Shown here one piece after another: positions 3,367 through 17,527 of a DNA stretch of 64,000 bases. Below the pieces are notes generated by a model. It did no database searches, had not been told where the DNA came from, and saw only the letters and a list, made by a program, of their open reading frames with translations. The stretch's first letter is position 1; each line of letters opens with the position of its first letter. The translations under genes and the position numbers were made by a program. Origin of the DNA: Escherichia phage phiP4; sequence record PP993145.1. The stretch is one strand, 5' to 3'.

Positions 3367-4119
3367 TTATCCAACTAGTGGTTCTAGCTCTAAGTCACAG
3401 AAGTTATAAACTTCTAGTTTAAGGTTATTGATACCATCGAATTTATTAACTAATTCGTGAGTAATATATTTTGCAGGAATACCACTTTCAGATGGATGAT
3501 CTGATTTAATAGTGAACTTCTGCTCAGCGGGCACTACATTTACTATCAAAGAATCCATATCTAAATGGTTTGTTTCTCTGAGTAACTCTCCTTCATTGGG
3601 GAATCTAACATCTGTTATTACGGCGACATCTGGGTCGTCTTTAGCGATGGATTGCTCCAGAATTATGAGCCAAATGCGTTCATGCACCAGCTGCCTTCCT
3701 AGCTCTGTCCCTACGAGCTGTAACATTTTTCTCGGAGAAATAAATAAACTATAAAGTCCGTCTTCTTTATTCTCTGAGATAAGTTGTTGAGGATTAAGGT
3801 ATTTTTCCTCAAAAATAGGCCAAACGTACGAGAAGTCTTCAAACTTATCGATACCGTACTTAAACCATACATCTCTGGCTCGCTCCAATTGAGATTGTGT
3901 GACCGTAAACCATTGGTCAATCTCTTTTCCTCTGCGCTCTCCTAGAAACTCTGGAGTTACACCGAGGATTACGGATGCAAGTTCATAAACTGGCTTAGCA
4001 AAACTATAACGACGAGAAAAACACGTTGGATACGTGTCATTACACCAATCGATAATTAATTTTGCAACGGTATCTTTTCCCGAACCAGCTTCACCATGTA
4101 AACCGACTAATACTGACAT
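3367..4119 (-). CDS. dnk: deoxynucleoside monophosphate kinase
   Basis: 250 aa; N-terminal P-loop GEAGSGKDT as in T4 gp1 / T5 dNMP kinase. Confidence 0.65.
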   Translation of the reverse strand: MSVLVGLHGEAGSGKDTVAKLIIDWCNDTYPTCFSRRYSFAKPVYELASVILGVTPEFLGERRGKEIDQWFTVTQSQLERARDVWFKYGIDKFEDFSYVWPIFEEKYLNPQQLISENKEDGLYSLFISPRKMLQLVGTELGRQLVHERIWLIILEQSIAKDDPDVAVITDVRFPNEGELLRETNHLDMDSLIVNVVPAEQKFTIKSDHPSESGIPAKYITHELVNKFDGINNLKLEVYNFCDLELEPLVG

Positions 4120-4472
4120 TAATCTTTCCTATTGTTAATTGGTGGATAATATACTAAACAACGTTTTTCTTGCAAATCTTGACGATAGAAGCAAACCATA
4201 CTTGTCAGTCGTGAAATATATGAATATTCTGCCTCACGGCATTTTGCCAACATATTCCAATCTTTATATGGTACAACAACTACTACGCCATCTTCTCCAT
4301 TTGTAGCTAATTTCTTTTCAAACTTAAAGTCAAAGCTACAAGGTTGAAGTCCTTTAGGCCAATCTACATGAGCTGTTGGTAACTCATGTGAGGGTTCTGA
4401 CTCTATTTCTTGTGCACAGCCTGTGATTGTGATTGCGGCTGCGAGCAGTATTCCAAGTTTCCAGTTAAACAT
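4119..4472 (-). CDS. lipoprotein (candidate outer-membrane spanin)
   Basis: Signal peptide with lipobox ITGC; overlaps the upstream membrane coiled-coil gene. Confidence 0.4.
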   Translation of the reverse strand: MFNWKLGILLAAAITITGCAQEIESEPSHELPTAHVDWPKGLQPCSFDFKFEKKLATNGEDGVVVVVPYKDWNMLAKCREAEYSYISRLTSMVCFYRQDLQEKRCLVYYPPINNRKD

Positions 4473-4852
4473 GCTAATCTTTCCTCGAACTCTTTACTCT
4501 GCTTTTTAGCAATTAATGTTACCAATCCAGGCTTTGCAGCTATAATGTCTTGACGACTAAGTGCTTTATCAAGCTGACTAATTTTCTTATCTAAGTCTGC
4601 TTGAGAAATATTATTCATCGTGAAATACTGATTCATTCTAGTCTCACGAAGTTCACTTTCAGCTTTCACCTTATTAAGGGAAGTCTCTAGAGAAGAAATC
4701 TTTTTAGTAGCTACTGCAAGATCTCCCGCTAAAGTCTCCACTTTATCTACTAAGTGATAAGCACCGAATCCGATGCCTATCGCTAGACCTGCTCCCAGGA
4801 TATACCACTTACCGTGCCATATTCCTGAAAGAAGTTTTTGTATCAAATCCAT
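4403..4852 (-). CDS. membrane-anchored coiled-coil protein (candidate inner-membrane spanin)
   Basis: N-terminal TM helix then heptad-like coiled coil; 3' end overlaps lipoprotein gene. Confidence 0.4.
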   Translation of the reverse strand: MDLIQKLLSGIWHGKWYILGAGLAIGIGFGAYHLVDKVETLAGDLAVATKKISSLETSLNKVKAESELRETRMNQYFTMNNISQADLDKKISQLDKALSRQDIIAAKPGLVTLIAKKQSKEFEERLACLTGNLEYCSQPQSQSQAVHKK

Positions 4853-5507
4853 GCGCTGCTAACCTGTCTTTATCTGATACTTTAATCATATCAGGCTCAC
4901 CAGTTCCTAGTACACCGAAGATATACTGTTCGAGAACTTGGTGTAAACGGTATAAGTTACTTTCAATTTCCTGCCACGGAATACCTGACTGATGGAAACG
5001 AATGTTAGTCTGAATTACGAAGTTACGAACATCATCGTTATCGTTCTTTTTAATACCTTTCACATATGCAATCGGTACGCGCAGTTCGGATAAGATACGT
5101 TCTGCTTTAGGTTTTGCTTCAGCTAGCAGATCACGCATTGTTTCACGAACATCTCCACGACTCTTATCCATTAAGTAAGAGCGAGCATGCAATCCCATCT
5201 CTTCCATTTTATCGAACATAGTGTCGAGATTAAACGTTTTGAAGCTAAATGCTGGATGCCAGCAGTACAGCTCGTGTAACCAGTAAACTTCACCTGCAAC
5301 AAACAGTGGATTTACGAAGTATTCGAAATCACCACGGAAAGATAGTGAACCATCACGAAATACCTGGCGAGTATGCACAATGTTCTTTTCTGCATCATCG
5401 GTTACTTTAACCAGCAACTCCTCAGTTTTACGTTCCCACACACGATCTGGGTCGAACAAACTGTTCTGCAAATCATACACATCGGCGAACTTAGAAATAA
5501 TCCTCAT
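4809..5507 (-). CDS. hypothetical protein
   Basis: 232-aa ORF, no recognised motif. Confidence 0.5.
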   Translation of the reverse strand: MRIISKFADVYDLQNSLFDPDRVWERKTEELLVKVTDDAEKNIVHTRQVFRDGSLSFRGDFEYFVNPLFVAGEVYWLHELYCWHPAFSFKTFNLDTMFDKMEEMGLHARSYLMDKSRGDVRETMRDLLAEAKPKAERILSELRVPIAYVKGIKKNDNDDVRNFVIQTNIRFHQSGIPWQEIESNLYRLHQVLEQYIFGVLGTGEPDMIKVSDKDRLAAHGFDTKTSFRNMAR

Positions 5508-5580
5508 ATTTAATCCTCTTGCCTCAATCTATAAACATATTATACAAAAGTTTGGGCATCTAAGCAACTAAAATTTTATT

Positions 5581-5617
5581 ATAAAAATAGCCCAGTCGCA
5601 AAAGTGCAGGCTGGGCT
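5581..5617 (-). terminator. rho-independent terminator
   Basis: Hairpin agcccag...ctgggct with T-run on minus strand after gene 5662..6042. Confidence 0.55.
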
Positions 5618-5661
5618 TTGTCATTATTTGCTTTTGCTAGTAAGTTGATTTAGTATCAATC

Positions 5662-6042
5662 TTATGTAATATTAGTTTCTCTAGCTTTGCGTAGTACCCC
5701 TGCGTTTCTCCACAATTTGATGTCAGCAACTGTTTCTTTATATGGAGCAATGGTAGAACCAATTGGGCCAGCAACTAATAACCCAAAGAACCCTACAATA
5801 CGCATGTAGAACAAGCATTCTTTGGCTGTCATATTATTTACTGCTTTTTTCTGCTTTTCATCTTTAAACTTCTGTTCTTGATCATCAATACGTAGATACT
5901 TAATAAACCATTCAGCAGAATATTCGTCCAAATGTCTAATAATAGCTATCGCATATACAGCACCGATTAAAAACCAAGTTGTAACAAGAATTAGTAATAT
6001 AGTCATATTATCTCCAGTTATGGCTAGCAGCCACCTCACCAC
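5662..6042 (-). CDS. membrane protein
   Basis: 126 aa with two hydrophobic helices. Confidence 0.45.
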   Translation of the reverse strand: MVRWLLAITGDNMTILLILVTTWFLIGAVYAIAIIRHLDEYSAEWFIKYLRIDDQEQKFKDEKQKKAVNNMTAKECLFYMRIVGFFGLLVAGPIGSTIAPYKETVADIKLWRNAGVLRKARETNIT

Positions 6043-6116
6043 TTACCGCACTAAGGGGCACGACTCCCTTATCCGTAACAGTTGCAGGTGACGCAACTCG
6101 GTCCTACGCGAGTTCT

Positions 6117-6401
6117 TTAAGTATTCTGCATTTCAGCTTTAAATTTTTTCATATTACGAGTTTTTCTATAAAAGAAAAACACAGATGTTGGGCCTAGAAG
6201 AATATCTACAATAAATATCATAGATCTAGCACATCTGAGTAATGTTTTATCATCAAGAGGTGGCAGATCTAACGGTCGAGTTTTATGTATAACGTATAAT
6301 ATTACATCTTTATTCTTAGAAATATACAGATCATCAACCAAGCTGTAAATAGCAACCACAGATCCAATGACGAACCAAAGAGCAAATGGAGAGATAATCA
6401 T
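6117..6401 (-). CDS. small membrane protein
   Basis: 94-aa ORF, hydrophobic N-terminus. Confidence 0.4.
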   Translation of the reverse strand: MIISPFALWFVIGSVVAIYSLVDDLYISKNKDVILYVIHKTRPLDLPPLDDKTLLRCARSMIFIVDILLGPTSVFFFYRKTRNMKKFKAEMQNT

Positions 6402-6694
6402 TTCAGATCCTTTTCATTAATTAGAATATTAGTAAACAGTGGAGTAAATCCTAGACTCATAGTGGGTCCAAAGGTTTTCATAGCTACCCATAACTGCAGG
6501 GTAATCATCCCATCTTTAATCTCTGGATCTTTATATTCACCAATACGTTTTTTGGCAAAGGCAACTACATCTGGGTTATTTTTATTTTCCTGAATATAGT
6601 CATGCCAAAACTGAGTATTCTCACTACGTAGGAATGTTAAAACATCCTTAGTTGCTGGGATCTGCACTGTGCTGTTGATGTTTAGTCTTTTCAC
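6398..6694 (-). CDS. hypothetical protein
   Basis: 98-aa ORF in tightly packed minus-strand array. Confidence 0.4.
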   Translation of the reverse strand: MKRLNINSTVQIPATKDVLTFLRSENTQFWHDYIQENKNNPDVVAFAKKRIGEYKDPEIKDGMITLQLWVAMKTFGPTMSLGFTPLFTNILINEKDLK

Positions 6695-7091
6695 GTTCTT
6701 CTCTCCGACGTTTACTTTCTTTCATCATATGAGCTGCTACAACTTCATGGTAGTAGTCATTAATGTTACCTTCTGGCAAGAAATGCTTAATAGTCTCTAA
6801 CTGACAAATAACTCGATGAAGATGGTTATTTGGTAGACACAATTTTATACCTGCAACAAATCCTGAGAAGCCTGGAATACTGAACATGGGTTTGGCTTCT
6901 ACTCTACCTTCAGAGTTGATGTTAAGCTCAATTGAAATACCCATTTTCATGCTATAAAGCTGGCAATATTCTCCATTACCAGACCTTGACCAAACAGTGA
7001 AGTCCTCATCAATTTGATCTTGGATTTCTGTAATTGCAAATTTAATTCTAGGGTCTAAATTATTCATCTTCACCTTCAAAGTCGCAATCAT
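6648..7091 (-). CDS. hypothetical protein
   Basis: 147-aa ORF. Confidence 0.4.
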   Translation of the reverse strand: MIATLKVKMNNLDPRIKFAITEIQDQIDEDFTVWSRSGNGEYCQLYSMKMGISIELNINSEGRVEAKPMFSIPGFSGFVAGIKLCLPNNHLHRVICQLETIKHFLPEGNINDYYHEVVAAHMMKESKRRREEREKTKHQQHSADPSN

Positions 7092-7365
7092 AACGACAAG
7101 TAAAAGAATCAGAACTATTAGTACGTTGAGTGGTTATTTCACCGCGTTTGCTAATAGTAACGGCTGGAGTAGAGAAGTTTTTATTAGTATATATTTCTAC
7201 TTTACCATTACGTTCCTTAACATCACGAACTTTACCATACTCGGTAATAATGCCGTTCTGTTGGACTTTAACATTACCATTTTTCATAGAAACTTTGGTA
7301 GACGCCAGAGAACCGAAACTAACTGCGGAGATCATCAGTGCAATAATAAACTTATTCATCTTCAT
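7060..7365 (-). CDS. secreted small protein
   Basis: Signal-peptide-like start MKMNKFIIALMISAVSFGSLAS; upstream part of the listed ORF is probably not translated. Confidence 0.4.
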   Translation of the reverse strand: MKMNKFIIALMISAVSFGSLASTKVSMKNGNVKVQQNGIITEYGKVRDVKERNGKVEIYTNKNFSTPAVTISKRGEITTQRTNSSDSFTCRYDCDFEGEDE

Positions 7366-7633
7366 CCTCCCCACTACAATCACGACATACATCATAATCG
7401 TTGAAAGAACGTTCGTGGGCTTCACACCACCAAGAACAAGAATCACAGAGAAACATTTCGGTTTTCTCCAGTGCTTGACCTAAAAGATCATCAGCTTCCT
7501 CAGCAGTAATCTTCAATCCGCACACATCTGCCACACGTTCTTTAATTAAACGACCTGCTTCGTGGTAAGACATACAGGTTCCCGCAACATCATGTTCAAG
7601 AACATGAACAGCACAGTCTAGACGAGTTTTCAT
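7352..7633 (-). CDS. Cys-rich small protein (putative Zn-binding)
   Basis: 93 aa with CDSCSWWC and CRDC pairs. Confidence 0.4.
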   Translation of the reverse strand: MKTRLDCAVHVLEHDVAGTCMSYHEAGRLIKERVADVCGLKITAEEADDLLGQALEKTEMFLCDSCSWWCEAHERSFNDYDVCRDCSGEDEDE

Positions 7634-7709
7634 TTCAAACCTCTCTCATCAATTTATAAACATATTATAGCAAGAAAAGAGAGGTTTAGCAAATGAATTA
7701 TTTCAGAAT

Positions 7710-8057
7710 TTAGTCATAGCACCACCATAACCCACGTTTACGCATGTCATGATCGCGATTATAATCATAATTTTCTGGATCTTTCATCACGCGGTGGAGT
7801 TCTTGACGATTCCCTTGACGAACCATTTTATTAGAATGCCACTTAACATTCTTACTAATAGAATTCCAGTTATAACCATCCTTTTTCTCATTACGAATGG
7901 TTGCTTCCTTCATTTCTTTTTTGATGTCGTCCCAGGATTTGGCATAAATAACACGAATCCAGTAGCCATTTTCTTTGAGGAAAGAATATTCTTGAGAGAA
8001 TTGTTCTTTAGACTTCCACCACTGATCACCAGATTGTCTACGATAAGTACGGCTCAT
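7710..8057 (-). CDS. hypothetical protein
   Basis: 115-aa ORF. Confidence 0.4.
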   Translation of the reverse strand: MSRTYRRQSGDQWWKSKEQFSQEYSFLKENGYWIRVIYAKSWDDIKKEMKEATIRNEKKDGYNWNSISKNVKWHSNKMVRQGNRQELHRVMKDPENYDYNRDHDMRKRGLWWCYD

Positions 8058-8134
8058 ATTACCTCCATTAAGTCTTTTAAATTAACCTAATGTGGATGAA
8101 TTTTATTATACATATATTATGTACCTTTATACAG

Positions 8135-8168
8135 AAAAACCCCAGACTACTTATTCAATAGCTGGGGT
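8135..8168 (-). terminator. rho-independent terminator
   Basis: Hairpin ccccag...ctgggg with flanking T-run on minus strand after 8179..8484. Confidence 0.55.
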
Positions 8169-8178
8169 TTGTTATTAA

Positions 8179-8484
8179 TTACAGATCGGGGCGTTCATCT
8201 TCGAACGCTACGAAGCCATCAAATTCATCATTTGAAATACCACCAGTATAGGTGATGTCCGCAATCATCGCTTCCATTTTCCTGATCTCCGAGGTTTTCA
8301 TACCTGCTTTACTATTCTTATAATATTTGCGAGGGTTCCCACACATCCAACAAGAACAGATGCAAGGAGTAGTAGTGATAATACCTAACCGCTTAGGGCT
8401 TTCTTCATGTGGAAAGACTGTCCAATACTTCTTACGGTTGTTCTTCACACGTTGCCGGTGATGGCGTCTTAATGCTCGATCCAC
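8179..8484 (-). CDS. hypothetical protein, Cys-rich
   Basis: 101-aa ORF with CICSCWMC cluster. Confidence 0.4.
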   Translation of the reverse strand: MDRALRRHHRQRVKNNRKKYWTVFPHEESPKRLGIITTTPCICSCWMCGNPRKYYKNSKAGMKTSEIRKMEAMIADITYTGGISNDEFDGFVAFEDERPDL

Positions 8485-8565
8485 ACATTTCTCCTAAAAC
8501 TTGGGAGATAAACGGAGTTTGCTCGACTACCTTGCGTAGCTGGGAGAAATCGTATCCAAACCCCA

Positions 8566-8934
8566 TTACATCGCCTGAGTAAATGTACGACTAATAACGT
8601 CGTTCTGTTGTTCACGAGTCAGTGCATTAAATCGAACAGCGTAGCCAGAGACACGGATGGTCAACTGAGGATATTTTTCAGGATGTTTCTGCGCATCCAA
8701 AAGCTGATCACGGCTTAACACATTGACATTTAGGTGCTGACCACCTTCGATTTGAGGGACGACTTCCACCTTAACTTCACGGAAGGATTCAGGATCGAAT
8801 TGCGGTGTGATACCTTCTAGATCTTCAACTAGAACTTTCTGTTTAAGTTCACCGTTGTCGGAGTATAGCTGAATAATCTGATTTTCATGAACAAGGTTAA
8901 TTACGCCAGATTTAAGATTTTGATATGCTTTCAT
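8566..8934 (-). CDS. grcA: GrcA/YfiD-like autonomous glycyl radical cofactor
   Basis: 122 aa; C-terminal half closely resembles E. coli GrcA including the glycyl-radical motif RVSGYAV ([10 protein letters not shown]...[20 protein letters not shown]). Confidence 0.75.
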
Positions 8935-8976
8935 TAGATCTCCCCGATGTTAGAATTTGGCTCAGCTTTTTATTCT

Positions 8977-9171
8977 TTATACTTTTCCATAGTATACGGA
9001 AACTGTCTTACCAGTTTGGTTCATGACATATGCTACTTCATCTTCTTTTAAAAAGATGGCTTGGTCTACTCCAACTATAGCCAATCTTTTATTTCTAGGA
9101 TTAAAGCTTACACTTTTGCCTGTATGAATCTGTTCCCCATTCTTGGCTGACATTATTTTAATTGTTAACAT
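8977..9171 (-). CDS. hypothetical protein
   Basis: 64-aa ORF. Confidence 0.35.
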   Translation of the reverse strand: MLTIKIMSAKNGEQIHTGKSVSFNPRNKRLAIVGVDQAIFLKEDEVAYVMNQTGKTVSVYYGKV

Positions 9172-9208
9172 AGCTGCTCCTAAATTTAGCTATCTCTAGC
9201 TATTTTAA

Positions 9209-9284
9209 TGGTAGTTAGTAGTGGATTTGAACCACTGTAATCGCTCCGTATGAAGGAGGTGCATAACCGCTCTGCCAACTAACT
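9209..9284 (-). tRNA. tRNA, anticodon CAU (Met-type; could be elongator Met or Ile-lysidine)
   Basis: Hand-folded cloverleaf: 7-bp acceptor, T-arm AGTGG-TTCAAAT-CCACT, anticodon loop TTCATAC, encoded CCA. Confidence 0.55.
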
Positions 9285-9380
9285 ATTATGTTTTACTAGA
9301 CTAAGTAAGTATTCTTTATACTCTTTAGTCCAATTAGCTTTTTTAAACTTTCCTGGACGCATAGTCTTAATTCCTAAATT

Positions 9381-9457
9381 TGGTACTCCGGGAGGGATTT
9401 AAACCCCCGATCTCTCGGTTATCAGCCGAGTGCTTTAGATCGCTAAGCTACCGAAGT
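9381..9457 (-). tRNA. tRNA-Ile (GAU)
   Basis: Acceptor ACTTCGG/CCGGAGT, anticodon arm CTCGG-CTGATAA-CCGAG, encoded CCA. Confidence 0.65.
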
Positions 9458-9458
9458 A

Positions 9459-9686
9459 TTAACATTTTACAGCAGAACGTTTGCCATTTCTAGGCGCACC
9501 TGGAAGTCGTGCACGTTCTGCCATTATTCGCTTAATCTTTGAGATATTTTCTAGTGTTTGTTTTTCAGGCTTAATACCTGAAACACTACACCACTGACTA
9601 CCATCCCATGCGGTAATGATCATAACACCATTACTCATGATCTTTTCTGTGAAAGTAATCCTCATTATAGCAACTCGTCTAAGCAA
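9459..9686 (-). CDS. hypothetical protein
   Basis: 75-aa ORF between tRNAs. Confidence 0.35.
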   Translation of the reverse strand: MLRRVAIMRITFTEKIMSNGVMIITAWDGSQWCSVSGIKPEKQTLENISKIKRIMAERARLPGAPRNGKRSAVKC

Positions 9687-9958
9687 GAGGTATATTTAAG
9701 TTTACCATCTTTATCTACTTTGATTTCGACTTCCGCTCGTGGTACTTGACGAACTACACCATGAATCATCTTATAGCGAATGCCTTTAGCTGGTTCATGC
9801 TCTTTTGGAAATACTTGCTTAACCGTTACTACCTTGAAACCCTCACGCGGTGTTAACACTACTACTTGATCACCTTTTTTGATCTTCCAAGAGCTAGGAA
9901 ATTCATAGGTATAGCGTTGACCACCAGTTTGGAACACAACAGAAAGATAACGTTTCAT
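9665..9958 (-). CDS. hypothetical protein
   Basis: 97-aa ORF. Confidence 0.4.
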   Translation of the reverse strand: MKRYLSVVFQTGGQRYTYEFPSSWKIKKGDQVVVLTPREGFKVVTVKQVFPKEHEPAKGIRYKMIHGVVRQVPRAEVEIKVDKDGKLKYTSCLDELL

Positions 9959-10025
9959 TTGGTTTCCCTCTCATTAATTTATATAAATATTATAACAAGA
10001 AATAAGAGAGAAAGCAAATGAATTT

Positions 10026-10193
10026 TTAATAGAGTTTAGTCACTTCATAAACTATACTACGAGATTCTTTATTACGTTCTATTAAATTAGCGTATGCTTT
10101 TTCAGCTTCGTTTTTAGTATTAAAGTCTATAACGTGGGAGGTATTAGCTCTGTTTGATTGACTATACCAGATAACTACTAGGAGTTTAAACAT
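10026..10193 (-). CDS. hypothetical small protein
   Basis: ORF trimmed to second Met to avoid overlap with the tRNA at 10208. Confidence 0.3.
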   Translation of the reverse strand: MFKLLVVIWYSQSNRANTSHVIDFNTKNEAEKAYANLIERNKESRSIVYEVTKLY

Positions 10194-10207
10194 ACTAGTC
10201 CTTAAAT

Positions 10208-10294
10208 TGGTGCTGGGCACAGGATTCGAACCTGCAGTGGGATTACTCCTCCTGATTACAAATCAGGTGCATTCAACCATTCTGCCAACCCAGC
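10208..10294 (-). tRNA. tRNA, anticodon UGU (Thr-type) with unusually long variable region
   Basis: Acceptor GCTGGGT/GCCCAGC, T-arm GCAGG-TTCGAAT-CCTGT, anticodon arm CCTGA-TTTGTAA-TCAGG; 87 nt. Confidence 0.5.
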
Positions 10295-10459
10295 AGAACC
10301 CGTTATTTCAACGGGATTTCTTTTTCAATAACAGGAGACTTATCAGTCATAACTGTCATTGCCATTTGTTGTAGAAATTCAAAGGTGAAGGCTACACGTT
10401 CTTCACCAATCTCTACTTCTACACGTTTCTTTTGTTTATCGATCTTGACTTTTAGGTTA

Positions 10460-10681
10460 TCAGCCATCTTCGGGTTCTCGTTGCTGTGCTACTTCTAGCC
10501 AGTCTGGTAGAAGAAACTTTGTACGAAATTCTTCGTAAGTTTCTTTGGGATAAAAGCTAAAACCTCCTTTCTCATCATTCAGGATAACAGAGCCGTCCGT
10601 TTGTTCGTATGCTCGGTATGTTTCTCCAATAACAATAACTCGTTTATCGGTACTTTTATTACGAAACTCAAAAACGTGCAT
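10460..10681 (-). CDS. hypothetical protein
   Basis: 73-aa ORF. Confidence 0.35.
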   Translation of the reverse strand: MHVFEFRNKSTDKRVIVIGETYRAYEQTDGSVILNDEKGGFSFYPKETYEEFRTKFLLPDWLEVAQQREPEDG

Positions 10682-10697
10682 AACGTTTCCTTAAAGT

Positions 10698-10773
10698 TGG
10701 AGCGGCTAGAGGGAATCGAACCCTACTCAGCGAGGCTTGGAAGGCCTGCGACACAACCCGTGTGCTTAACCGC
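10698..10773 (-). tRNA. tRNA-Gly (UCC)
   Basis: Acceptor GCGGTTA/TAGCCGC, T-loop TTCGATT, anticodon loop CTTCCAA. Confidence 0.5.
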
Positions 10774-10781
10774 TTATTATT

Positions 10782-10857
10782 TGGCTGGAGAAGGAGGAAT
10801 CGAACCTACCATTAACGGAGTCAAAGGCCGTTGTGCTAACCGTTACACTACTCTCCA
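10782..10857 (-). tRNA. tRNA-Gln (UUG)
   Basis: U1-A72 acceptor TGGAGAG/TTCTCCA with G discriminator as in bacterial tRNA-Gln; anticodon loop CTTTGAC. Confidence 0.55.
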
Positions 10858-10863
10858 ATTGTT

Positions 10864-10939
10864 TGGCTGGGATGCCACGGATCGAACGTGGAACCTTCGG
10901 AGTCAGAGGCCGACGATCTGCCAATTGATCTACATCCCA
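10864..10939 (-). tRNA. tRNA-Gln (CUG)
   Basis: Acceptor TGGGATG/CATCCCA, discriminator G, D-arm GATC-AATTGGCA-GATC, anticodon loop CTCTGAC. Confidence 0.55.
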
Positions 10940-10948
10940 AGAATGCTA

Positions 10949-11185
10949 TTAGCTAGATGCTGTTTCTACTGGCTGAGAAACAGCAGGCTGTTCTAACGTA
11001 TCTGGTGCTGATACAGAGAAAAGAGCTTGTAATGCTGCAATATCACGCTCGTAAGTATCAATACGAGTAGTAAGAGTATCTACCATCTGTTTATGGTAGG
11101 ATAAGTTATTCTGAGATTCATCTCGAAGAGTTTGCAGTTCTGCAAGACGTGTTAACATAATTTCACTAATTAAAGCATTACTCAT
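10949..11185 (-). CDS. hypothetical coiled-coil protein
   Basis: 78-aa ORF. Confidence 0.35.
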   Translation of the reverse strand: MSNALISEIMLTRLAELQTLRDESQNNLSYHKQMVDTLTTRIDTYERDIAALQALFSVSAPDTLEQPAVSQPVETASS

Positions 11186-11375
11186 TTGTTTCTCCTAAGT
11201 TTTCCTGTTCTTCTAAACGTTTGCCTTCATGATCTACTCGAATAACTCCGCATCCTTCGCAAATCACAACTGCACCATAACCTTCTTTGACCTCAGCTTC
11301 TGTAATCAAACCAGAAAGATCACCAGTATCTCTGCCCCACATATCAATGGAGCATTGTTTGCAGAAATCAGCCAT
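11178..11375 (-). CDS. small Zn-ribbon-like protein
   Basis: 65 aa with CKQC ... CEGC cysteine pairs. Confidence 0.35.
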   Translation of the reverse strand: MADFCKQCSIDMWGRDTGDLSGLITEAEVKEGYGAVVICEGCGVIRVDHEGKRLEEQENLGETNE

Positions 11376-11400
11376 ATTTTATTTCCTATTTAAGTTAATT

Positions 11401-11477
11401 TGGGGTGGCTAGTGGAATTCGAATCCACATAGGCCTGATTCACAATCAGGATCATTAACCAATTATGATATAGCCAC
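11401..11477 (-). tRNA. tRNA-His (GUG)
   Basis: Acceptor GTGGCTA/TAGCCAC, discriminator C, anticodon arm CCTGA-TTGTGAA-TCAGG, T-arm GTGGA-TTCGAAT-TCCAC. Confidence 0.65.
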
Positions 11478-11704
11478 AATTGAAAACTCGCAGGGTTAGC
11501 GAAACCTTCCTCAATTAGCATGTTCTAGAATACTAATCAAGTTATCTCCTATTGCACGCAGCTCAAGACGAGTACGAATTTTCAATTGTGGCGGCTCTCA
11601 GAAACTCTTCTACTCTAGCTTTAGCAGCTTACTCCCGAACGCATGTCGGGGAAGTCTTACCAAGAGCATCAAATAGCACCGTTACACTTTGAGCCATAGA
11701 TGTA

Positions 11705-11800
11705 TCAAGAAGCAGAAGGATTTGAACCTTCACGAGATAGACCAGTTATCTCAGCCGCTTTATGAGGTATGTTGCAGGGAGTGGATGTTCCCTATAAACC
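11705..11800 (-). ncRNA. tRNA-like element, not foldable as a canonical tRNA
   Basis: Perfect T-arm GAAGG-TTCAAAT-CCTTC at 11716-11732 but no complementary 5' acceptor strand found within 100 nt; bounds are a guess. Confidence 0.25.
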
Positions 11801-12040
11801 TTTTAGGCAGCCCCGTCTACCGATTCCGGCATACTTCAAGAATTTTTTATAAACCAGCAGAAGCCTCATTTAAAGCATCAACAATAGCTTCACGTTGGGT
11901 CATTCCATACCCGGTGGAATCTAGGTGTGGCAAATAAGCCATCCATCCCTTATCTGTTTCATGAAGACATGCTTTAAATTTTTTACCATCCTTCATTGTT
12001 ACAGTAACTGTTTTGCTCATAAGATTTCCTTATAGTTAAT

Positions 12041-12130
12041 TGGCAGAAGATAATGGAGTCGAACCATCACCGTATCGCTACAGCGGGCTGGTTTTCAAGA
12101 CCAGTTACGTACCACTACGTCCTATCTTCT
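12041..12130 (-). tRNA. tRNA-Ser (UGA), type II
   Basis: Acceptor AGAAGAT/ATCTTCT, anticodon arm CTGGT-CTTGAAA-ACCAG (as in E. coli tRNA-Ser UGA), long variable arm, 90 nt. Confidence 0.65.
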
Positions 12131-12143
12131 AGTATTTATTATA

Positions 12144-12491
12144 CTAATAGTCACTCGTACTAGTGAAGTTTTCTACTTTTCCACAGATTTTACAAGTCCT
12201 ACGATGATAGTAGGTAATTTTTACTTTAGACCAGCCATCGTGATCATTACCTAGGTTTTCTGTTACTCCCCAAGTATGAGAACACTCATTTTCAATTTGC
12301 TTAGTAAGAGCGTTATAGCGAGTATAAAACTCCTCCTGAGCAATAGCAAATTCTTTCTGTAGTTTATCACGAGCAATAATAGCACGTTCCAGATATGTTA
12401 AATCAGGCATTCCAGCTTTTTCAGCAACATCTATAATCTTATCTTCATCTAAAGATGCTAAAAACTCTAGAGCTTTATCTTTTGTTAGCAT
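12144..12491 (-). CDS. hypothetical protein with C-terminal Zn-ribbon-like motif
   Basis: 115 aa; CSHTWG ... CKICGK. Confidence 0.4.
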   Translation of the reverse strand: MLTKDKALEFLASLDEDKIIDVAEKAGMPDLTYLERAIIARDKLQKEFAIAQEEFYTRYNALTKQIENECSHTWGVTENLGNDHDGWSKVKITYYHRRTCKICGKVENFTSTSDY

Positions 12492-12510
12492 TATTATTAC
12501 CTCAAGTGTT

Positions 12511-12601
12511 TGGCGGAAGAGGAGAGATTTGAACTCTCAAGCCGTTTTACCAGTCAGCCACTTTCCAAGCGGTTTTCGTCACCAATTCGATTTGCTCTTC
12601 C
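12511..12601 (-). tRNA. tRNA-Ser (GGA), type II
   Basis: Acceptor GGAAGAG/CTCTTCC, anticodon region CCGC-TTGGAAA-GTGG resembling E. coli tRNA-Ser GGA, long variable arm, 91 nt. Confidence 0.55.
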
Positions 12602-12611
12602 AATAATAAGA

Positions 12612-12706
12612 TGATGCCTCTATCACACCAGGCAGTTACGCCTCGCTGGGATTCGAACCCATTAAAACAGCTCAACCGAGATAGTAGGTTTAATTTACTC
12701 TGACCA
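12612..12706 (-). ncRNA. tRNA-like element / degenerate tRNA
   Basis: T-arm-like TGGG-TTCGAAT-CCCA at 12646-12662 without an adjacent acceptor stem; distal ends (12612-12618 and 12700-12706) are partly complementary. Confidence 0.25.
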
Positions 12707-12713
12707 TCAAATT

Positions 12714-12790
12714 TGGTGCGTGACAAGGGATTCGAACCCTCAAAACCCGACTTCTAAGGACGGTATGTATGCCAATTCCATCAATCACGC
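12714..12790 (-). tRNA. tRNA, anticodon UAG (Leu-type anticodon, short variable arm)
   Basis: Acceptor GCGTGAT/GTCACGC, T-arm GAGGG-TTCGAAT-CCCTT, anticodon loop CTTAGAA; anticodon stem has one mismatch. Confidence 0.45.
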
Positions 12791-12795
12791 ATATT

Positions 12796-12874
12796 TGGTG
12801 GAGAATAACGGAATCGAACCGTTCTGATGTCCTCGGTGCAAGCGAGGTGTCCACTCCATGCAGACCCATTCCCC
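12796..12874 (-). tRNA. tRNA-Ala (UGC)
   Basis: Acceptor GGGGAAT/ATTCTCC with G3-U70 pair, anticodon arm CCTCG-CTTGCAC-CGAGG. Confidence 0.65.
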
Positions 12875-12887
12875 AAATTCTTTAGTT

Positions 12888-13072
12888 TACTAAGGCTATT
12901 AGCTCGGCGTAACTACAGCACCTTCGCTTCGAGCGGAAGGAACTGCGTCATCTCGCAAACCCAATACACTATTCAGTTGCCGCTGAATCTAGTGGACCAA
13001 TCTAGAACTTCTCCCGAATCAGGGGGATCGTGCTTTTTGGCAGCCAGTCCTAGGTCGAGCTAATACCTTAGT
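12888..13072 (-). ncRNA. structured ORF-free element closed by terminal inverted repeat (candidate small RNA)
   Basis: About 16-nt inverted repeat taaggctattagctcg (12890-12906) / cgagctaatacctta (13055-13070) enclosing a GC-rich stretch with internal hairpins; strand not determined. Confidence 0.3.
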
Positions 13073-13159
13073 GAACTATGATGAGGATTTCTCCTCATCA
13101 ATTTATATAAATATTATAACAAGAAATTAAGCATCAAGCAACTGCGTTTTTTCTTGAAA

Positions 13160-13239
13160 TTGGTAGATCGCCTGGGACTCGAACCCAGAACCTTCCGATT
13201 AAAAGTCGGATGCTACTAAACCTATTGAGCTAGCGATCT
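13160..13239 (-). tRNA. tRNA-Lys (UUU)
   Basis: Acceptor AGATCGC/GCGATCT, anticodon arm TCCGA-CTTTTAA-TCGGA, T-arm CTGGG-TTCGAGT-CCCAG. Confidence 0.7.
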
Positions 13240-13428
13240 ATTAGTAACCATTATACACTTCTTTAATAGAGTGGACTTTTAAGTAAGGGTGATTAGTACT
13301 AAACTCTACCATTACTTCATCCCAATTTTTACCATAATGAGCAAGTAAGGATTTTGATGTATTCTTACCTAATCGTTTATCACTTACTACTAATCGAAAT
13401 ACTTTCATTTCGAAATCCTCTATTAAAA

Positions 13429-13506
13429 TGGAAGCGGGTGCAGGAATCGAACCTACCTCTTTCTAGCTTATGAGACTAGCGATCTCTACCAGAGATCTAA
13501 CCCGCG
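13429..13506 (-). tRNA. tRNA-fMet-like (CAU), initiator-type
   Basis: Anticodon loop CTCATAA; 5' end CGCGGGT with unpaired position 1-72 (C1/U72), the hallmark of bacterial initiator tRNA. Confidence 0.55.
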
Positions 13507-13512
13507 ATTATT

Positions 13513-13588
13513 TGGTCAGTGCGGCAGGACTCGAACCTGCGACCCGAAGCATCCAAGGCTCCCACGCTACCAACTGCGCTACGCACTG
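13513..13588 (-). tRNA. tRNA-Pro (UGG)
   Basis: Acceptor CAGTGCG/CGCACTG, D-arm GCGC-AGTTGGTA-GCGT, anticodon loop CTTGGAT. Confidence 0.65.
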
Positions 13589-13797
13589 TTAATTTTTGTT
13601 AACTCACTTTATAAGATATATTATACAGAGAATTAAGCAGAATAGCAAATGAATTTTTAATAAATTTACTTATTGTGTAGGCCACCTAGAGGCTATGAAC
13701 CCCACGGCTGACAAAGAAGTTTGCGAGACTTCTCTTAAATGCCAGAATAGACCCGCCGATCTATCGGAACCTACATAATAAGTAAACTTTATAGTGT

Positions 13798-13918
13798 CAT
13801 TCTAGACAGGACTCGAACCTGTTATCACTTGTGCGGACTTACGAGAACCATTCTTTCACTCGAATCGAACGAGCTTCTGCCCTCGCCAAGCTGGTTTCCC
13901 CATCAACCACGCTAGAAT
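13798..13918 (-). ncRNA. unusual tRNA-like RNA of about 120 nt (tRNA with large insertion or novel tRNA-like ncRNA)
   Basis: Perfect 7-bp acceptor pairing between 13799-13805 and 13912-13918, perfect T-arm ACAGG-TTCGAGT-CCTGT, D-arm-like TGGT-loop-ACCA, but about 45 extra nt between D-arm and T-arm including a second T-arm-like hairpin. Confidence 0.4.
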
Positions 13919-14040
13919 GTTTGATTGTTTTCAGTGCAAGAGTCCGAGTCTTGGACACGACCGCTTCGCAAGTACATAGGCAGCTTATCATGAGTCAGCA
14001 CTTCCGAATTGCTAGCTCCGTGTTCTGCACTGAAATTTTA

Positions 14041-14388
14041 TTAGTTTAACCGTAAAGTATTATCTACTTCACCATTAATTGTTCGGCATTCTTCTGGGAT
14101 TGCCGGGGTAGCCTTATATTCCCACCACTCAGCACCATCATATTCCCCACGTTCTAACCAAGTTCCATCGGCAAACCATACATTACCATAAAGTAATTGT
14201 CCACCGTATCCAGAATCATATTCAAAGTCTAGGTTATTAAGAAAATCCTCAATATCTTCTTCTGTATAACCTAAAGGTAATACCCAAACTTTTTTATCCC
14301 CATAATACCCGAATTCTATTTTAATACACTTAACTTCAGAATTAGTATTTTTTAAGGCAAGTAACAACTCTTCTTTAGCATTACGCAT
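14041..14388 (-). CDS. hypothetical protein
   Basis: 115-aa ORF. Confidence 0.4.
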   Translation of the reverse strand: MRNAKEELLLALKNTNSEVKCIKIEFGYYGDKKVWVLPLGYTEEDIEDFLNNLDFEYDSGYGGQLLYGNVWFADGTWLERGEYDGAEWWEYKATPAIPEECRTINGEVDNTLRLN

Positions 14389-14413
14389 AATATATTCTCA
14401 TACTGAATTAATT

Positions 14414-14490
14414 TGGCGCGACCGATGGGATTCGAACCCACATTCTCTCCCGTGACAGGGGAGTACCATTACCAAGCCAGCCCCGGTCGC
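14414..14490 (-). tRNA. tRNA-Asp (GUC)
   Basis: Acceptor GCGACCG/CGGTCGC, anticodon arm CTCCC-CTGTCAC-GGGAG. Confidence 0.7.
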
Positions 14491-14499
14491 ATGATCTGT

Positions 14500-14685
14500 T
14501 TATTCAGCTTTGAGTTTTTCAATAGCTGCATTAAGTTCTTTAAGAAACTCTTTTCGTACATTAAGACGATTGAGACTTACTAGTATATCATGTTTAAGTT
14601 CTTCGATGTATTTCTTCTCAACTTCAATATTGTTGATAGTGCTATCACGATGAACTTCTAACTGTGCAATTACATTCTTGGACAT
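14500..14685 (-). CDS. hypothetical coiled-coil protein
   Basis: 61-aa ORF. Confidence 0.35.
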   Translation of the reverse strand: MSKNVIAQLEVHRDSTINNIEVEKKYIEELKHDILVSLNRLNVRKEFLKELNAAIEKLKAE

Positions 14686-14787
14686 GCTTATTTCCTCAGT
14701 TATTAATGAAAATGGTATCTGTGGCTGAATTCGATGTCAGCAATGATAGCTGGTTGGCTACCGGTTTACTTAACTCTACACAGAATT

Positions 14788-14870
14788 TGGCGGGCCGTGT
14801 AGGATTCGAACCTACGTTGTCTTTCGACATGGATTAACAGTCCACCGCCAAACCGCTTGGCTAACGACCC
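14788..14870 (-). tRNA. tRNA-Asn (GUU) with extended variable arm
   Basis: Anticodon arm TGGA-CTGTTAA-TCCA as in E. coli tRNA-Asn; extra GTC-GAAA-GAC hairpin in the variable region; 83 nt. Confidence 0.55.
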
Positions 14871-15022
14871 TAAATTTATATTGCTGACTAGGATTTTCAC
14901 CTAGACGGAGTTAGCACCGTAGCGTGTAGCGGCATACCTCTCCAAACCGTGCCTCATCTTTCAATTACGGAGACAGTGTTCCTACGCGTGCCTGAATTGA
15001 TTTAACAATTCTTTCAGCAAAT

Positions 15023-15098
15023 TGGACGACCGCATGAGATTTGAACTCACATAAAAAGGATTTGCAATCCTTCGCCTAAGCCATTCAGCCAACGGTCG
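15023..15098 (-). tRNA. tRNA-Cys (GCA)
   Basis: Acceptor CGACCGT/GCGGTCG, anticodon arm AAGGA-TTGCAAA-TCCTT. Confidence 0.65.
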
Positions 15099-15165
15099 AT
15101 TTATTATCTTTCATAACGTGCAGCTACATGGTCGGAACCACAACACTTAAATCTAACTAATCGTT

Positions 15166-15408
15166 TCATTTAACACGCTCCGGTAGATCTTCTAGTTTAT
15201 ATTCAGTAGCCACATTAGCAGCATCTAAAAGTAATCCCATGTGTTTAAGGATTTTAGTGATAGATTCGCCTTTGGCTTCTTCTACGAAAGAACGTAGATG
15301 AACAAAGTCAATTCCACCGTCCATACCAGAGAAAATATTTAGTAAGCGAAGCATTACCAGCTTACGTTCATTCAATTCTTGTTCTGTCATGTTGCTTCTC
15401 CAGTTCAA
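15166..15408 (-). CDS. hypothetical protein
   Basis: 80-aa ORF. Confidence 0.35.
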   Translation of the reverse strand: MNWRSNMTEQELNERKLVMLRLLNIFSGMDGGIDFVHLRSFVEEAKGESITKILKHMGLLLDAANVATEYKLEDLPERVK

Positions 15409-15440
15409 TTTATATAATTATTATACAGAACTTTTGGAAA

Positions 15441-15728
15441 CTAAGCAACTACATTTTTTAAGAATTTGATGCCTTTCTTTTTCTTCTTATATTTCCACGT
15501 TAAGGGATTCTGTCGATTATGAACGCTTGAGATCTTCGTCTCGTCAAAGTTCTTCAATATCATGTAATCACAAGATAATTGTTCTAGTGGAATGTGATCA
15601 CCGTCAAAAGCGTATACATAAGGCTGTTGACTAGCACGATAATGATAGACTTTGTTAATTCTACGTTTCAGCGACTTATCCGCGCAGTAAATAAAGAAGT
15701 TTTCAGGATGCATCAGCAGCTCCTTCAA
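15441..15728 (-). CDS. hypothetical protein
   Basis: 95-aa ORF with TTG start. Confidence 0.35.
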   Translation of the reverse strand: MKELLMHPENFFIYCADKSLKRRINKVYHYRASQQPYVYAFDGDHIPLEQLSCDYMILKNFDETKISSVHNRQNPLTWKYKKKKKGIKFLKNVVA

Positions 15729-15730
15729 TT

Positions 15731-15805
15731 TGGTGCACCCTGTTCGTATCGAACGAACCTCTCAAGCTCTTCAGGCAAGCGCTAATCCATCTCAGCTAAA
15801 GGTGC
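15731..15805 (-). tRNA. tRNA-Phe (GAA)
   Basis: Acceptor GCACCTT/AGGGTGC, D-arm GCTG-AGATGGAT-TAGC, T-arm GTTCG-TTCGATA-CGAAC, anticodon loop CTGAAGA; anticodon stem has two U-U mismatches. Confidence 0.45.
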
Positions 15806-15812
15806 AAATTTT

Positions 15813-15888
15813 TGGCAAACCTACTAGGACTCGAACCTAGACCGTACGGTTTTGGAGACCGACATGCTGTCCAGTAACACTCTAGGAA
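15813..15888 (-). tRNA. tRNA-Trp-like (CCA anticodon arm), acceptor not resolved
   Basis: Anticodon arm TCGGT-CTCCAAA-ACCGT matches E. coli tRNA-Trp, T-arm CTAGG-TTCGAGT-CCTAG, but no complementary 5' acceptor strand; 5' bound is a guess. Confidence 0.35.
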
Positions 15889-15897
15889 TGCAGGAAT

Positions 15898-15974
15898 TGG
15901 CGTCCTGTGAGGGGATCGAACCCGCAAATCCTACCTTGAAAGGGTAGTGACTTTACCAGTTTGTCTAACAGGAC
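15898..15974 (-). tRNA. tRNA-Glu (UUC)
   Basis: Acceptor GTCCTGT/ACAGGAC, anticodon arm CTACC-CTTTCAA-GGTAG. Confidence 0.65.
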
Positions 15975-15980
15975 TTAAAT

Positions 15981-16068
15981 TGGTGGGGAAAGATGGAGTC
16001 GAACCACCCGAGTCGCAATGACAACTGATTTACAGTCAGCTCTGCTACCACTTACAGAATATTTCCCC
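15981..16068 (-). tRNA. tRNA-Tyr (GUA), type II
   Basis: Acceptor GGGGAAA/TTTCCCC, anticodon arm GCTGA-CTGTAAA-TCAGT as in E. coli tRNA-Tyr, long variable arm, 88 nt. Confidence 0.65.
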
Positions 16069-17311: not shown

Positions 17312-17319
17312 ATAGTCTC

Positions 17320-17508: not shown

Positions 17509-17527
17509 TAGTTGTCCTTATTTAATT

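What the first reader, a model, noticed from the sequence alone, without database searches (positions are those of the whole stretch)
8566..8934. GrcA-like glycyl-radical spare-part protein encoded alongside anaerobic RNR NrdD
The C-terminal 60 residues match the E. coli GrcA glycyl-radical domain almost residue for residue, including RVSGYAV. The same genome encodes NrdD (35135-37009), another glycyl-radical enzyme, but I found no NrdG-like radical SAM activase in the window. This suggests the phage relies on host activases and may use the GrcA-like protein to repair or substitute oxygen-damaged glycyl-radical domains during anaerobic infection.
Basis: partly seen in the sequence, partly recalled or inferred. 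Interest (0 to 1): 0.6.

Follow-up and report, generated by a model that had tools for sequence, protein, structure and literature searches.

The report
Phage copy of GrcA spare-part protein
This T5-like phage carries a small, intact gene for a GrcA-type "spare part" that should patch the host's oxygen-damaged pyruvate formate-lyase; such phage genes have been known since 2001 (phage T4) and this one is already annotated in T5, so it is real but ordinary.

Summary
Window 8566-8934 (minus strand) is an intact 122-aa gene. Its last 62 residues are 77-79% identical to E. coli GrcA and to the C-terminus of PflB, and include the radical-site motif RVSGYAV. It is not a pfl pseudogene: no other PflB-like sequence exists in the window, it has its own SD and start, its N-terminal half aligns with phage T4 Y06I (vs.6), and both halves are under purifying selection (dN/dS 0.05-0.18).

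The window is a T5-like phage (Tequintavirus). The gene occurs in more than 400 T5-like records and about 1,580 phage records overall, and is annotated "putative GrcA" in T5 and DT571/2. T4 Y06I is a biochemically validated PFL spare part.

NrdD is present 26 kb away. No radical-SAM activase (NrdG or PflA) was found in the window or in the rest of the closest genome, so dependence on host activases is a sound inference. The phage protein is tailored to host PflB, not to the phage NrdD.

One new side observation: in several other phage lineages grcA-like genes sit inside RNR operons (nrdD-grcA-nrdG). This suggests a formate-supply link to class III RNR. It is inferred, not shown.

The parts
8566..8934 (-). 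Complete CDS of the GrcA-like autonomous glycyl-radical protein (122 aa plus TAA stop)
   Evidence: ORF list. Pfam Gly_radical. NCBIfam GrcA TIGR04365, 121 bits. PHROG 1209 matched over the full length. 100% identical to Lindwurm UCR80991.1.
8940..8945 (-). Shine-Dalgarno GGGGAG, 5 nt upstream of the ATG
   Evidence: Read directly from the minus-strand sequence. An RBS is annotated at the same place in Lindwurm.
8755..8934 (-). N-terminal half (residues 1-60). It is divergent from bacterial GrcA but alignable with T4 Y06I and other phage GrcAs (MKAYQ..., Gln5 nearly invariant).
   Evidence: BLASTP to T4 vs.6 gives 52% identity over the full length. 38-sequence alignment. dN/dS 0.08-0.18 among T5-like phages. 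AF2 predicts beta strands at pLDDT 75-79, which is unverified.
8569..8754 (-). C-terminal glycyl-radical domain (residues 61-122), equivalent to PflB 699-760 and YfiD 66-127
   Evidence: tblastn of PflB gives 79% over 62 aa. PDB alignments. Foldseek top hits are 6OWR and PFL. There are 18 synonymous and 0 non-synonymous differences versus DT571/2.
8635..8655 (-). RVSGYAV radical-site motif. Gly97 (8644-8646) is the predicted radical glycine, equivalent to PflB Gly734.
   Evidence: Sequence and alignments. The RVSGYAV 7-mer is a PFL-AE substrate (PMC13450708).
35135..37009 (+). Context: phage class III ribonucleotide reductase NrdD (624 aa, RVCGYLG glycyl loop, MGC finger loop). No nrdG follows it.
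   Evidence: Pfam NRDD 575 bits. T4 NrdD 1H78 E=2e-177. The ORFs downstream are small unknowns followed by a Sir2-family protein.

Best explanation
The gene encodes the T5-type member of the GrcA/YfiD/T4-Y06I family of autonomous glycyl-radical 'spare part' proteins.

Proposed mechanism, with the basis of each step:
1. Inferred from position only: the gene lies in the minus-strand block of small genes and tRNA genes, on the replication/nucleotide-metabolism side of the genome. From general knowledge of T5, this is the early region.
2. Inferred from homology: the C-terminal 62 residues are a near copy of PflB 699-760. They dock into host pyruvate formate-lyase whose own glycyl-radical loop has been cleaved at Gly734 by oxygen.
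3. Inferred: the divergent N-terminal half helps binding and activation, as in YfiD.
4. Inferred: the host activase PflA (PFL-AE), not a phage enzyme, abstracts the hydrogen from Gly97 in the RVSGYAV loop. The phage has no radical-SAM protein.
5. Inferred: the repaired complex resumes pyruvate -> acetyl-CoA + formate.

Likely benefit (inference): from my own knowledge, T5 and T4 shut off and destroy the host genome, so PflB and host GrcA cannot be resynthesised. A 14-kDa patch would keep fermentative ATP/acetyl-CoA and formate production going during micro-aerobic infection. Formate is also the reductant of T4/E. coli-type class III RNR, so the patch may in addition feed the phage's own NrdD. 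That enzyme would have to be activated by host NrdG.
For: Family identity. Pfam Gly_radical. GrcA is the best NCBIfam hit. 6OWR E=1.6e-30 and PflB 698-759. 52% full-length identity to the validated T4 Y06I. 40 invariant columns across 38 phage and bacterial GrcAs, including the whole [19 protein letters not shown] block. Foldseek top hits for the AF2 model are YfiD and PFL.

A functional gene. It has an SD and an ATG. It is intact at 122 aa in 436 T5-like records. dN/dS is 0.05-0.18, with 0 non-synonymous against 18 synonymous changes in the C-terminal half versus DT571/2.

Precedent. Y06I and YfiD are activated by PFL-AE and restore O2-cleaved PFL (PMC8683613).

Host activase. There is no NrdG or PflA homologue and no usable CxxxCxxC motif in the window or in the rest of Lindwurm. 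PFL-AE accepts RVSGYAV but not RVCGYLG.

Formate link. Class III RNR uses formate (PMC4493059). The window NrdD is of the T4 type. grcA-like genes sit next to nrdD/nrdG or nrdAB in four other phage lineages. Bacterial grcA instead sits by ung with no RNR genes nearby.
Against: - No experiment exists for the T5-type protein.
- Its N-terminal half is the most divergent in the family. TIGR04365 aligns only residues 50-122, at 121 bits against a cutoff of 170, although the validated T4 Y06I also fails the cutoff at 151 bits.
- In this window grcA and nrdD are 26 kb apart on opposite strands, so the RNR coupling rests on other lineages.
- In two of those lineages the neighbour is class Ia nrdAB, which does not use formate.
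- The rest of this exact phage genome was not seen. Lindwurm served as a proxy, and the window is only 95-99.9% similar to the known genomes.
- The expression timing is not shown by any result here; the promoter-like and terminator-like scan was not above chance.
Confidence: 0.75

Rival explanations
1. The protein is a spare part for the phage's own NrdD, or a general spare part for any glycyl-radical enzyme: after oxygen damage it replaces the NrdD glycyl-radical domain.
For: Both genes are in one genome. In jumbo phages and Aeromonas phages the grcA-like gene lies between or directly after nrdD and nrdG. Andorfer 2021 speculates that spare parts for other GREs may exist.
Against: There is no detectable similarity to the phage NrdD (BLASTP E=17). 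The domain is 79% identical to PflB and carries the PFL-type loop RVSGYAV, even in the RNR-embedded Aeromonas copy. NrdD has RVCGYLG plus a Zn-ribbon C-terminus with a different architecture. Activases discriminate between the two loops.
Confidence: 0.04
2. The protein is a decoy or inhibitor. It titrates host PflA, or displaces the PflB radical domain, to shut down or redirect host pyruvate metabolism rather than repair it.
For: A free RVSGYAV domain could compete for PFL-AE. Phages often carry host-mimicking inhibitors (general knowledge). The divergent N-terminus might change partner binding.
Against: The T4 homologue restores PFL activity rather than inhibiting it. The entire domain, including the strand and C-terminal helix that pack into PFL, is under very strong purifying selection, which is more than a decoy loop would need. 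Per, Andorfer 2021 detected no radical on the individual components of the cPFL:YfiD complexes and proposes installation after binding, which argues against a free sink.
Confidence: 0.05
3. The ORF is a decaying remnant of a captured pflB (or tdcE) gene with no function of its own.
For: The best DNA match in E. coli is pflB (78% over 186 nt). Many GenBank records label the gene 'pyruvate formate-lyase'.
Against: PflB matches only residues 699-760, and nothing else in the window matches even at E<=10. The gene has its own SD and ATG, and its N-terminus is shared with T4 Y06I and the wider GrcA family. It is intact in more than 400 genomes with dN/dS well below 1 in both halves.
Confidence: 0.01

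Closest known systems
Bacteriophage T4 Y06I (gene vs.6), autonomous glycyl radical cofactor
   Same: A phage-encoded protein of about 120 aa. It is 52% identical over the full length, with the same MKAYQ start and the same PFL-type radical domain. It comes from a virulent enterobacterial phage that also encodes NrdD. It is validated as activated by PFL-AE and as restoring O2-cleaved PFL (Wagner 2001).
   Different: T4 has its own NrdG; the T5-like phage has none. The T4 C-terminal half is nearly identical to E. coli GrcA (59/62), whereas the T5-type is equidistant from GrcA and PflB (48 and 49 of 62). The T5-type N-terminal half is more divergent: 121 versus 151 bits on TIGR04365.
E. coli GrcA (YfiD), PDB 6OWR
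   Same: Same size and same two-part architecture. It is 74% identical over residues 51-122, and the AF2 model's top Foldseek hit is 6OWR. The mechanism is established: the C-terminal half mimics PFL 693-759, and the N-terminal half aids binding and activation.
   Different: The first ~50 residues show no significant pairwise similarity. The YfiD N-terminus is disordered by NMR, while AF2 predicts beta strands here (unverified). The bacterial gene sits next to ung; the phage gene sits among tRNA genes.
C-terminal glycyl-radical domain of pyruvate formate-lyase PflB (and TdcE)
   Same: 79% identity to PflB 699-760, including Gly734-equivalent Gly97 and the TFTQ-M ending. The best E. coli DNA match is pflB.
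   Different: The phage protein lacks the 690-residue barrel and the catalytic Cys418/Cys419, so it cannot be an enzyme on its own.
Class III RNR NrdD glycyl-radical domain with NrdG activase
   Same: It belongs to the same Pfam Gly_radical superfamily. It co-occurs with grcA-like genes in the same phage genomes and is adjacent to them in some lineages.
   Different: There is no pairwise similarity. The loop is different (RVCGYLG) and so is the activase specificity. No NrdG is present in this phage.

Membership tests
GrcA/YfiD autonomous glycyl radical cofactor (TIGR04365 / IPR011140) | Stand-alone small protein of about 120-127 aa | tested here: met
   122 aa with its own SD, ATG and stop.
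GrcA/YfiD autonomous glycyl radical cofactor (TIGR04365 / IPR011140) | C-terminal ~62-67 residues that duplicate PFL 693-759 | tested here: met
   79% identity to PflB 699-760 and 77% to GrcA over the last 62 residues. Foldseek top hits are 6OWR and PFL.
GrcA/YfiD autonomous glycyl radical cofactor (TIGR04365 / IPR011140) | Radical glycine in the PFL-type loop RVSGYAV (the PFL-AE recognition sequence) | tested here: met
   Residues 94-100 are RVSGYAV, invariant in 38 family members. Peptide specificity is described in PMC13450708.
GrcA/YfiD autonomous glycyl radical cofactor (TIGR04365 / IPR011140) | Score above the curated equivalog cutoff (170 bits) | tested here: not met
   121 bits, aligned over residues 50-122 only. 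The biochemically validated T4 Y06I also fails at 151 bits, whereas E. coli GrcA scores 234. The cutoff therefore excludes true phage members.
GrcA/YfiD autonomous glycyl radical cofactor (TIGR04365 / IPR011140) | N-terminal half homologous to that of the family | tested here: inconclusive
   It aligns full-length with T4 Y06I (52% identity), and Gln5 is nearly invariant family-wide. There is no significant pairwise match to the E. coli GrcA N-terminus.
GrcA/YfiD autonomous glycyl radical cofactor (TIGR04365 / IPR011140) | Radicalised by PFL-AE and restores activity to O2-cleaved PFL | not testable with these tools
   Shown only for YfiD and T4 Y06I (PMC8683613).
Pyruvate formate-lyase (full enzyme or its pseudogene) | A ~760-aa ten-stranded barrel with Cys418/Cys419, or scattered remnants of it | tested here: not met
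   tblastn of PflB on the window matches only residues 699-760. TIGR01255 scores 85 bits against a cutoff of 994.
Phage-encoded glycyl-radical activase (NrdG / PflA, radical SAM) | A CxxxCxxC cluster motif in an ORF of about 150-250 aa homologous to NrdG or PflA | tested here: not met
   There are no tblastn hits below E=1 in the window or in Lindwurm 1-24500 and 87000-110040. The only such motif in an ORF of at least 60 aa is in the 101-aa ORF 8179-8484, which has no Pfam hit and matches phrog_4499 of unknown function.
Spare part for class III RNR (hypothetical) | Sequence mimicry of the NrdD C-terminal radical domain (RVCGYLG loop) | tested here: not met
   BLASTP against the phage's own NrdD gives E=17. 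The loop is the PFL type.

The most novel reading that the evidence does not exclude
Phage GrcA-like proteins may be accessories of the phage ribonucleotide-reductase module, and not only general metabolic patches. By keeping host PFL alive they would secure formate, the reductant of the phage's T4-type NrdD.

This would explain why grcA-like genes have repeatedly ended up inside RNR operons in unrelated phages:
- nrdD-grcA-nrdG in ~350-kb enterobacterial jumbo phages
- nrdD-nrdG-grcA-nrdC-nrdH in Aeromonas phages
- nrdA-nrdB-grcA in a Vibrio phage

Bacterial grcA, by contrast, sits by ung. In T5-like phages the same pair (GrcA plus NrdD) would run entirely on two host activases, PflA and NrdG. 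I found no paper in the searchable library that describes this linkage.
Probability: 0.3. Interest if true: 0.5.

Novelty: already known. Interest (0 to 1): 0.22.

Why it matters
As it stands, the finding confirms a known auxiliary metabolic gene. Virulent enterobacterial phages carry their own copy of the PFL repair protein, presumably because they destroy the host's ability to make it. Three things have practical value.

- **Annotation.** GenBank labels for this gene are inconsistent or wrong: 'pyruvate formate-lyase', '2-ketobutyrate formate-lyase', 'acetyltransferase-related', 'ribonucleotide reductase subunit', 'hypothetical'. PHROG 1209 is still listed as 'unknown function'.
- **Host dependence.** T5-like phages carry two glycyl-radical proteins and no activase. 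This predicts a strict dependence on host pflA and nrdG under low oxygen, which is relevant to phage performance in the gut.
- **A testable link.** The recurrent placement of grcA-like genes in phage RNR operons offers a cheap hypothesis connecting PFL repair to formate-dependent dNTP synthesis.

Tried and rejected
- **Pfl pseudogene idea: rejected.** PflB matches only its last 62 residues anywhere in the window.
- **Hidden NrdG or PflA: none found.** I ran tblastn with T4 NrdG and E. coli PflA, plus a six-frame CxxxCxxC scan down to very short stretches, on the window and on Lindwurm 1-24500 and 87000-110040. The one motif-bearing ORF (8179-8484, directly downstream of grcA) is 101 aa, has no Pfam hit and matches phrog_4499 of unknown function. 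It is too small for a radical-SAM fold, so I treat its position as coincidence.
- **Similarity to the phage's own NrdD: none**.
- **Promoter and terminator scan of 6500-11000: uninformative.** Counts were not above the shuffled expectation.
- **Literature on T5, GrcA and nrdG: nothing.** Searches returned no papers. The T4 genome review and Wei 2014 are not held.
- **Lindwurm as a full proxy: only partly valid.** The window is 99.9% identical at 7000-10467, but elsewhere it is a mosaic (98.3%; BF23 is the best match at 94.9% for 44-64 kb), and its right end lies in a different tail-fibre allele.
- **Genome-level co-occurrence of grcA-like and nrdD: could not be computed.** Only record counts are available, 1584 versus 2796.
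- **Fold of the N-terminal beta region: no significant PDB match**.

Full report
**What is there**

Window 8566-8934 on the minus strand is a 122-aa ORF. A GGGGAG Shine-Dalgarno lies 5 nt upstream of the ATG, and the upstream gene stops 42 nt before it.

The protein hits Pfam Gly_radical (E=4e-18, residues 62-103). In NCBIfam its best hit is the GrcA equivalog TIGR04365, at 121 bits over residues 50-122. Against solved structures the best matches are:
- E. coli YfiD/GrcA (6OWR, E=1.6e-30)
- E. coli PflB (E=6e-27, query 61-122 aligned to PflB 698-759)

Over the last 62 residues it shares 48 identities with E. coli GrcA, 49 with PflB and 48 with T4 vs.6. RVSGYAV occupies residues 94-100, with Gly97 equivalent to PflB Gly734. 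The one nuance is that the domain is as close to PflB as to GrcA; at DNA level the best E. coli match is pflB, 78% over 186 nt.

**Where it is**

The window is a T5-like phage (Demerecviridae, Tequintavirus):
- 7000-10467 is 99.9% identical to Escherichia phage Lindwurm.
- Other parts are mosaic; the best hit for 44-64 kb is BF23 at 94.9%.

The gene lies at the edge of a minus-strand block of small genes and 21 tRNA genes.

**Is it a real gene or a pfl fragment?**

- tblastn of full-length PflB against the window matches only residues 699-760, even at E<=10.
- The N-terminal half aligns with T4 vs.6 over the full length (52% identity, shared MKAYQ start).
- In a 38-sequence alignment of phage and bacterial homologues, Gln5 is nearly invariant and 40 C-terminal columns are invariant.
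- The ORF is intact at 122 aa in 436 records with at least 80% identity.
- Nei-Gojobori dN/dS against SH9, DT571/2 and Ob_P is 0.05-0.18 overall, 0.08-0.18 for residues 1-60, and 0-0.13 for residues 61-122. Against DT571/2 the C-terminal half shows 18 synonymous and 0 non-synonymous differences.

The pseudogene reading is refuted.

**Structure**

An AlphaFold2 model built from that alignment has mean pLDDT 71.7.
- The C-terminal half has a helix (75-83), a hairpin (92-95 and 98-101) with Gly97 at its tip, and a C-terminal helix (107-118).
- Residues 59-71 have low confidence. They are the counterpart of the strand that inserts into the PFL barrel.
- Foldseek against the PDB returns YfiD (6OWR) and then PFL (1CM5, 2PFL) as the only hits below E=1e-3.
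- The N-terminal half is predicted as beta strands at pLDDT 75-79, with no significant structural match. This contrasts with the NMR-disordered N-terminus of YfiD and remains unverified.

**What is known about the family**

Wagner et al. 2001 showed that E. coli YfiD and T4 Y06I are radicalised by PFL-AE and reconstitute oxygen-cleaved PFL. As of 2021 these were the only two validated spare parts (PMC8683613).
- YfiD 61-127 mimics PFL 693-759, and residues 1-60 promote binding and activation.
- T4 Y06I is gene vs.6.
- The T5 homologue is already annotated 'putative autonomous glycyl radical cofactor GrcA [Enterobacteria phage T5]', as carried in the DT571/2 record. Other records use 'glycyl radical cofactor'.
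- Elsewhere the labels are inconsistent: pyruvate formate-lyase, 2-ketobutyrate formate-lyase, acetyltransferase-related, hypothetical. PHROG 1209, matched over the full length, is listed as unknown function.
- Homologues occur in 1584 phage records.
- The window protein fails the TIGR04365 cutoff (121 against 170 bits). So does the validated T4 protein (151 bits), while E. coli GrcA scores 234. Failing the cutoff does not argue against function.

**Activases and NrdD**

NrdD at 35135-37009(+) is confirmed: Pfam NRDD 575 bits, and T4 NrdD 1H78 at E=2e-177. It has the MGCRSF finger loop and an RVCGYLG glycyl loop. The local arrangement is nrdA(-) phoH(-) nrdD(+), as Dwivedi 2013 describes for T5, SPC35 and EPS7. 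The same paper notes that many phages carry nrdD without nrdG.

Evidence against a phage-encoded activase:
- T4 NrdG and E. coli PflA give no tblastn hit better than E=1.3 in the window or in Lindwurm 1-24500 and 87000-110040.
- A six-frame CxxxCxxC scan finds no candidate apart from a 101-aa ORF of unknown function.

Dependence on host PflA for GrcA and on host NrdG for NrdD is therefore a well-founded inference. The caveat is that the remainder of this exact genome was not available.

PFL-AE radicalises the RVSGYAV peptide but not RVCGYLG (PMC13450708), and the phage GrcA-like protein has no similarity to its own NrdD. The spare part is therefore built for host PflB or TdcE, not for NrdD.

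I surveyed the surroundings of grcA-like genes. The sample was 80 IMG/VR loci with up to 10-kb flanks on each side, plus individual look-ups.

| Lineage | Position of the grcA-like gene |
|---|---|
| T5-like phages | No RNR gene within 10 kb; in the window nrdD is 26 kb away on the opposite strand |
| T4 proper | None within 10 kb; vs.6 is about 17 kb from nrdD/nrdG |
| ~350-kb enterobacterial jumbo phages | nrdD-grcA-nrdG; in L013/L014 grcA starts 13 nt after nrdD and nrdG overlaps its end; 160-1225 nt spacings in L045-L047 |
| Aeromonas phages 65-like (235-kb contig, my identification) and AsFcp_4 | nrdA-nrdB-nrdD-nrdG-grcA(-nrdC-nrdH) |
| Vibrio phage D479 | nrdA-nrdB-grcA |
| Uncultured contig carrying P0061 | nrdB-nrdA divergent from grcA |
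| T4-related contigs of 143-181 kb (L049, L050, L058, L060-L062, L065) | nrdAB 6.5-8.8 kb upstream |

The Aeromonas copy embedded in the RNR operon still carries RVSGYAV. In E. coli, Aeromonas and Vibrio chromosomes, grcA sits by ung with no RNR genes nearby.

Class III RNRs of the E. coli/T4 type use formate as reductant (PMC4493059), and PFL makes formate. A 2026 review mentions formate-dependent class III RNR as a possible consumer of PFL-derived formate. A plausible reading is that phage GrcA protects the formate supply of phage NrdD.

This reading is inference. The class Ia neighbours in two lineages do not fit it specifically, and in the window itself the genes are not linked. No paper in the searchable library describes the linkage.

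**Verdict**

The feature is real and correctly identified. It is a T5-type member of the GrcA/Y06I spare-part family and most likely repairs host PFL using the host activase. It is already annotated in public T5-like genomes, and its family was validated in a phage 25 years ago. At most it is a metabolic (formate) or regulatory coupling, which gene order in other phages supports only circumstantially. Interest is low for the finding itself and modest for the RNR-operon linkage.

Noticed in passing
L013/L014 3183-5830; L012 1365-4384; L015 1656-5372; L099 1411-5378; L045-L047, L068: In other phage lineages, grcA-like genes sit inside or next to RNR operons. Jumbo enterobacterial phages have nrdD-grcA-nrdG. 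Aeromonas phages have nrdD-nrdG-grcA-nrdC-nrdH. Vibrio phage D479 has nrdA-nrdB-grcA. One uncultured contig has nrdBA divergent from grcA. Bacterial grcA sits by ung instead. I found no description of this in the held literature.
   Followed up: partly
window 8179-8484 (-): A 101-aa ORF lies directly downstream of grcA and has a basic N-terminus and a CxCxCxxCGNPR motif. It is the only CxxxCxxC in any ORF of at least 60 aa in the window. It has no Pfam hit and matches phrog_4499 (unknown function). It is too small for a radical-SAM enzyme.
   Followed up: partly
window 37704-38519 (+): A Sir2-family protein (Pfam SIR2, E=1.2e-24) is encoded about 0.7 kb downstream of nrdD, after three small ORFs with no Pfam match.
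   Followed up: no
window 31334-37009: The arrangement nrdA(-), phoH-like(-), nrdD(+) has no nrdG. It matches the T5/SPC35/EPS7 pattern noted by Dwivedi 2013. The phage NrdD must be activated by host NrdG, and this compatibility is untested.
   Followed up: partly
window 9209-17700 (-): 21 tRNA genes lie on the minus strand, interspersed with small ORFs. The grcA-like gene is at the downstream edge of this block.
   Followed up: no
window 7710-8057 (-): A DUF7295 protein (Pfam E=3e-53) lies two genes downstream of grcA. Its function is unknown.
   Followed up: no
P0033 (Citrobacter phage YZU-L1) and GenBank records listed: Annotation of this gene family is inconsistent. One record has a 67-aa C-terminal-only call labelled 'ribonucleotide reductase subunit'. 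Others use 'pyruvate formate-lyase', '2-ketobutyrate formate-lyase' or 'acetyltransferase-related'.
   Followed up: no
window 4000-13423 and 44000-64000 versus Lindwurm and BF23: The window is a mosaic T5-like genome. It is 99.9% identical to Lindwurm at 7000-10467 and 98.3% over 4000-10467, with indels in the tRNA region. The best hit for 44-64 kb is only 94.9% (BF23). The right end lies in a long ORF (61581-63977, minus strand) that has no megablast match to Lindwurm's tail-fibre region.
   Followed up: partly
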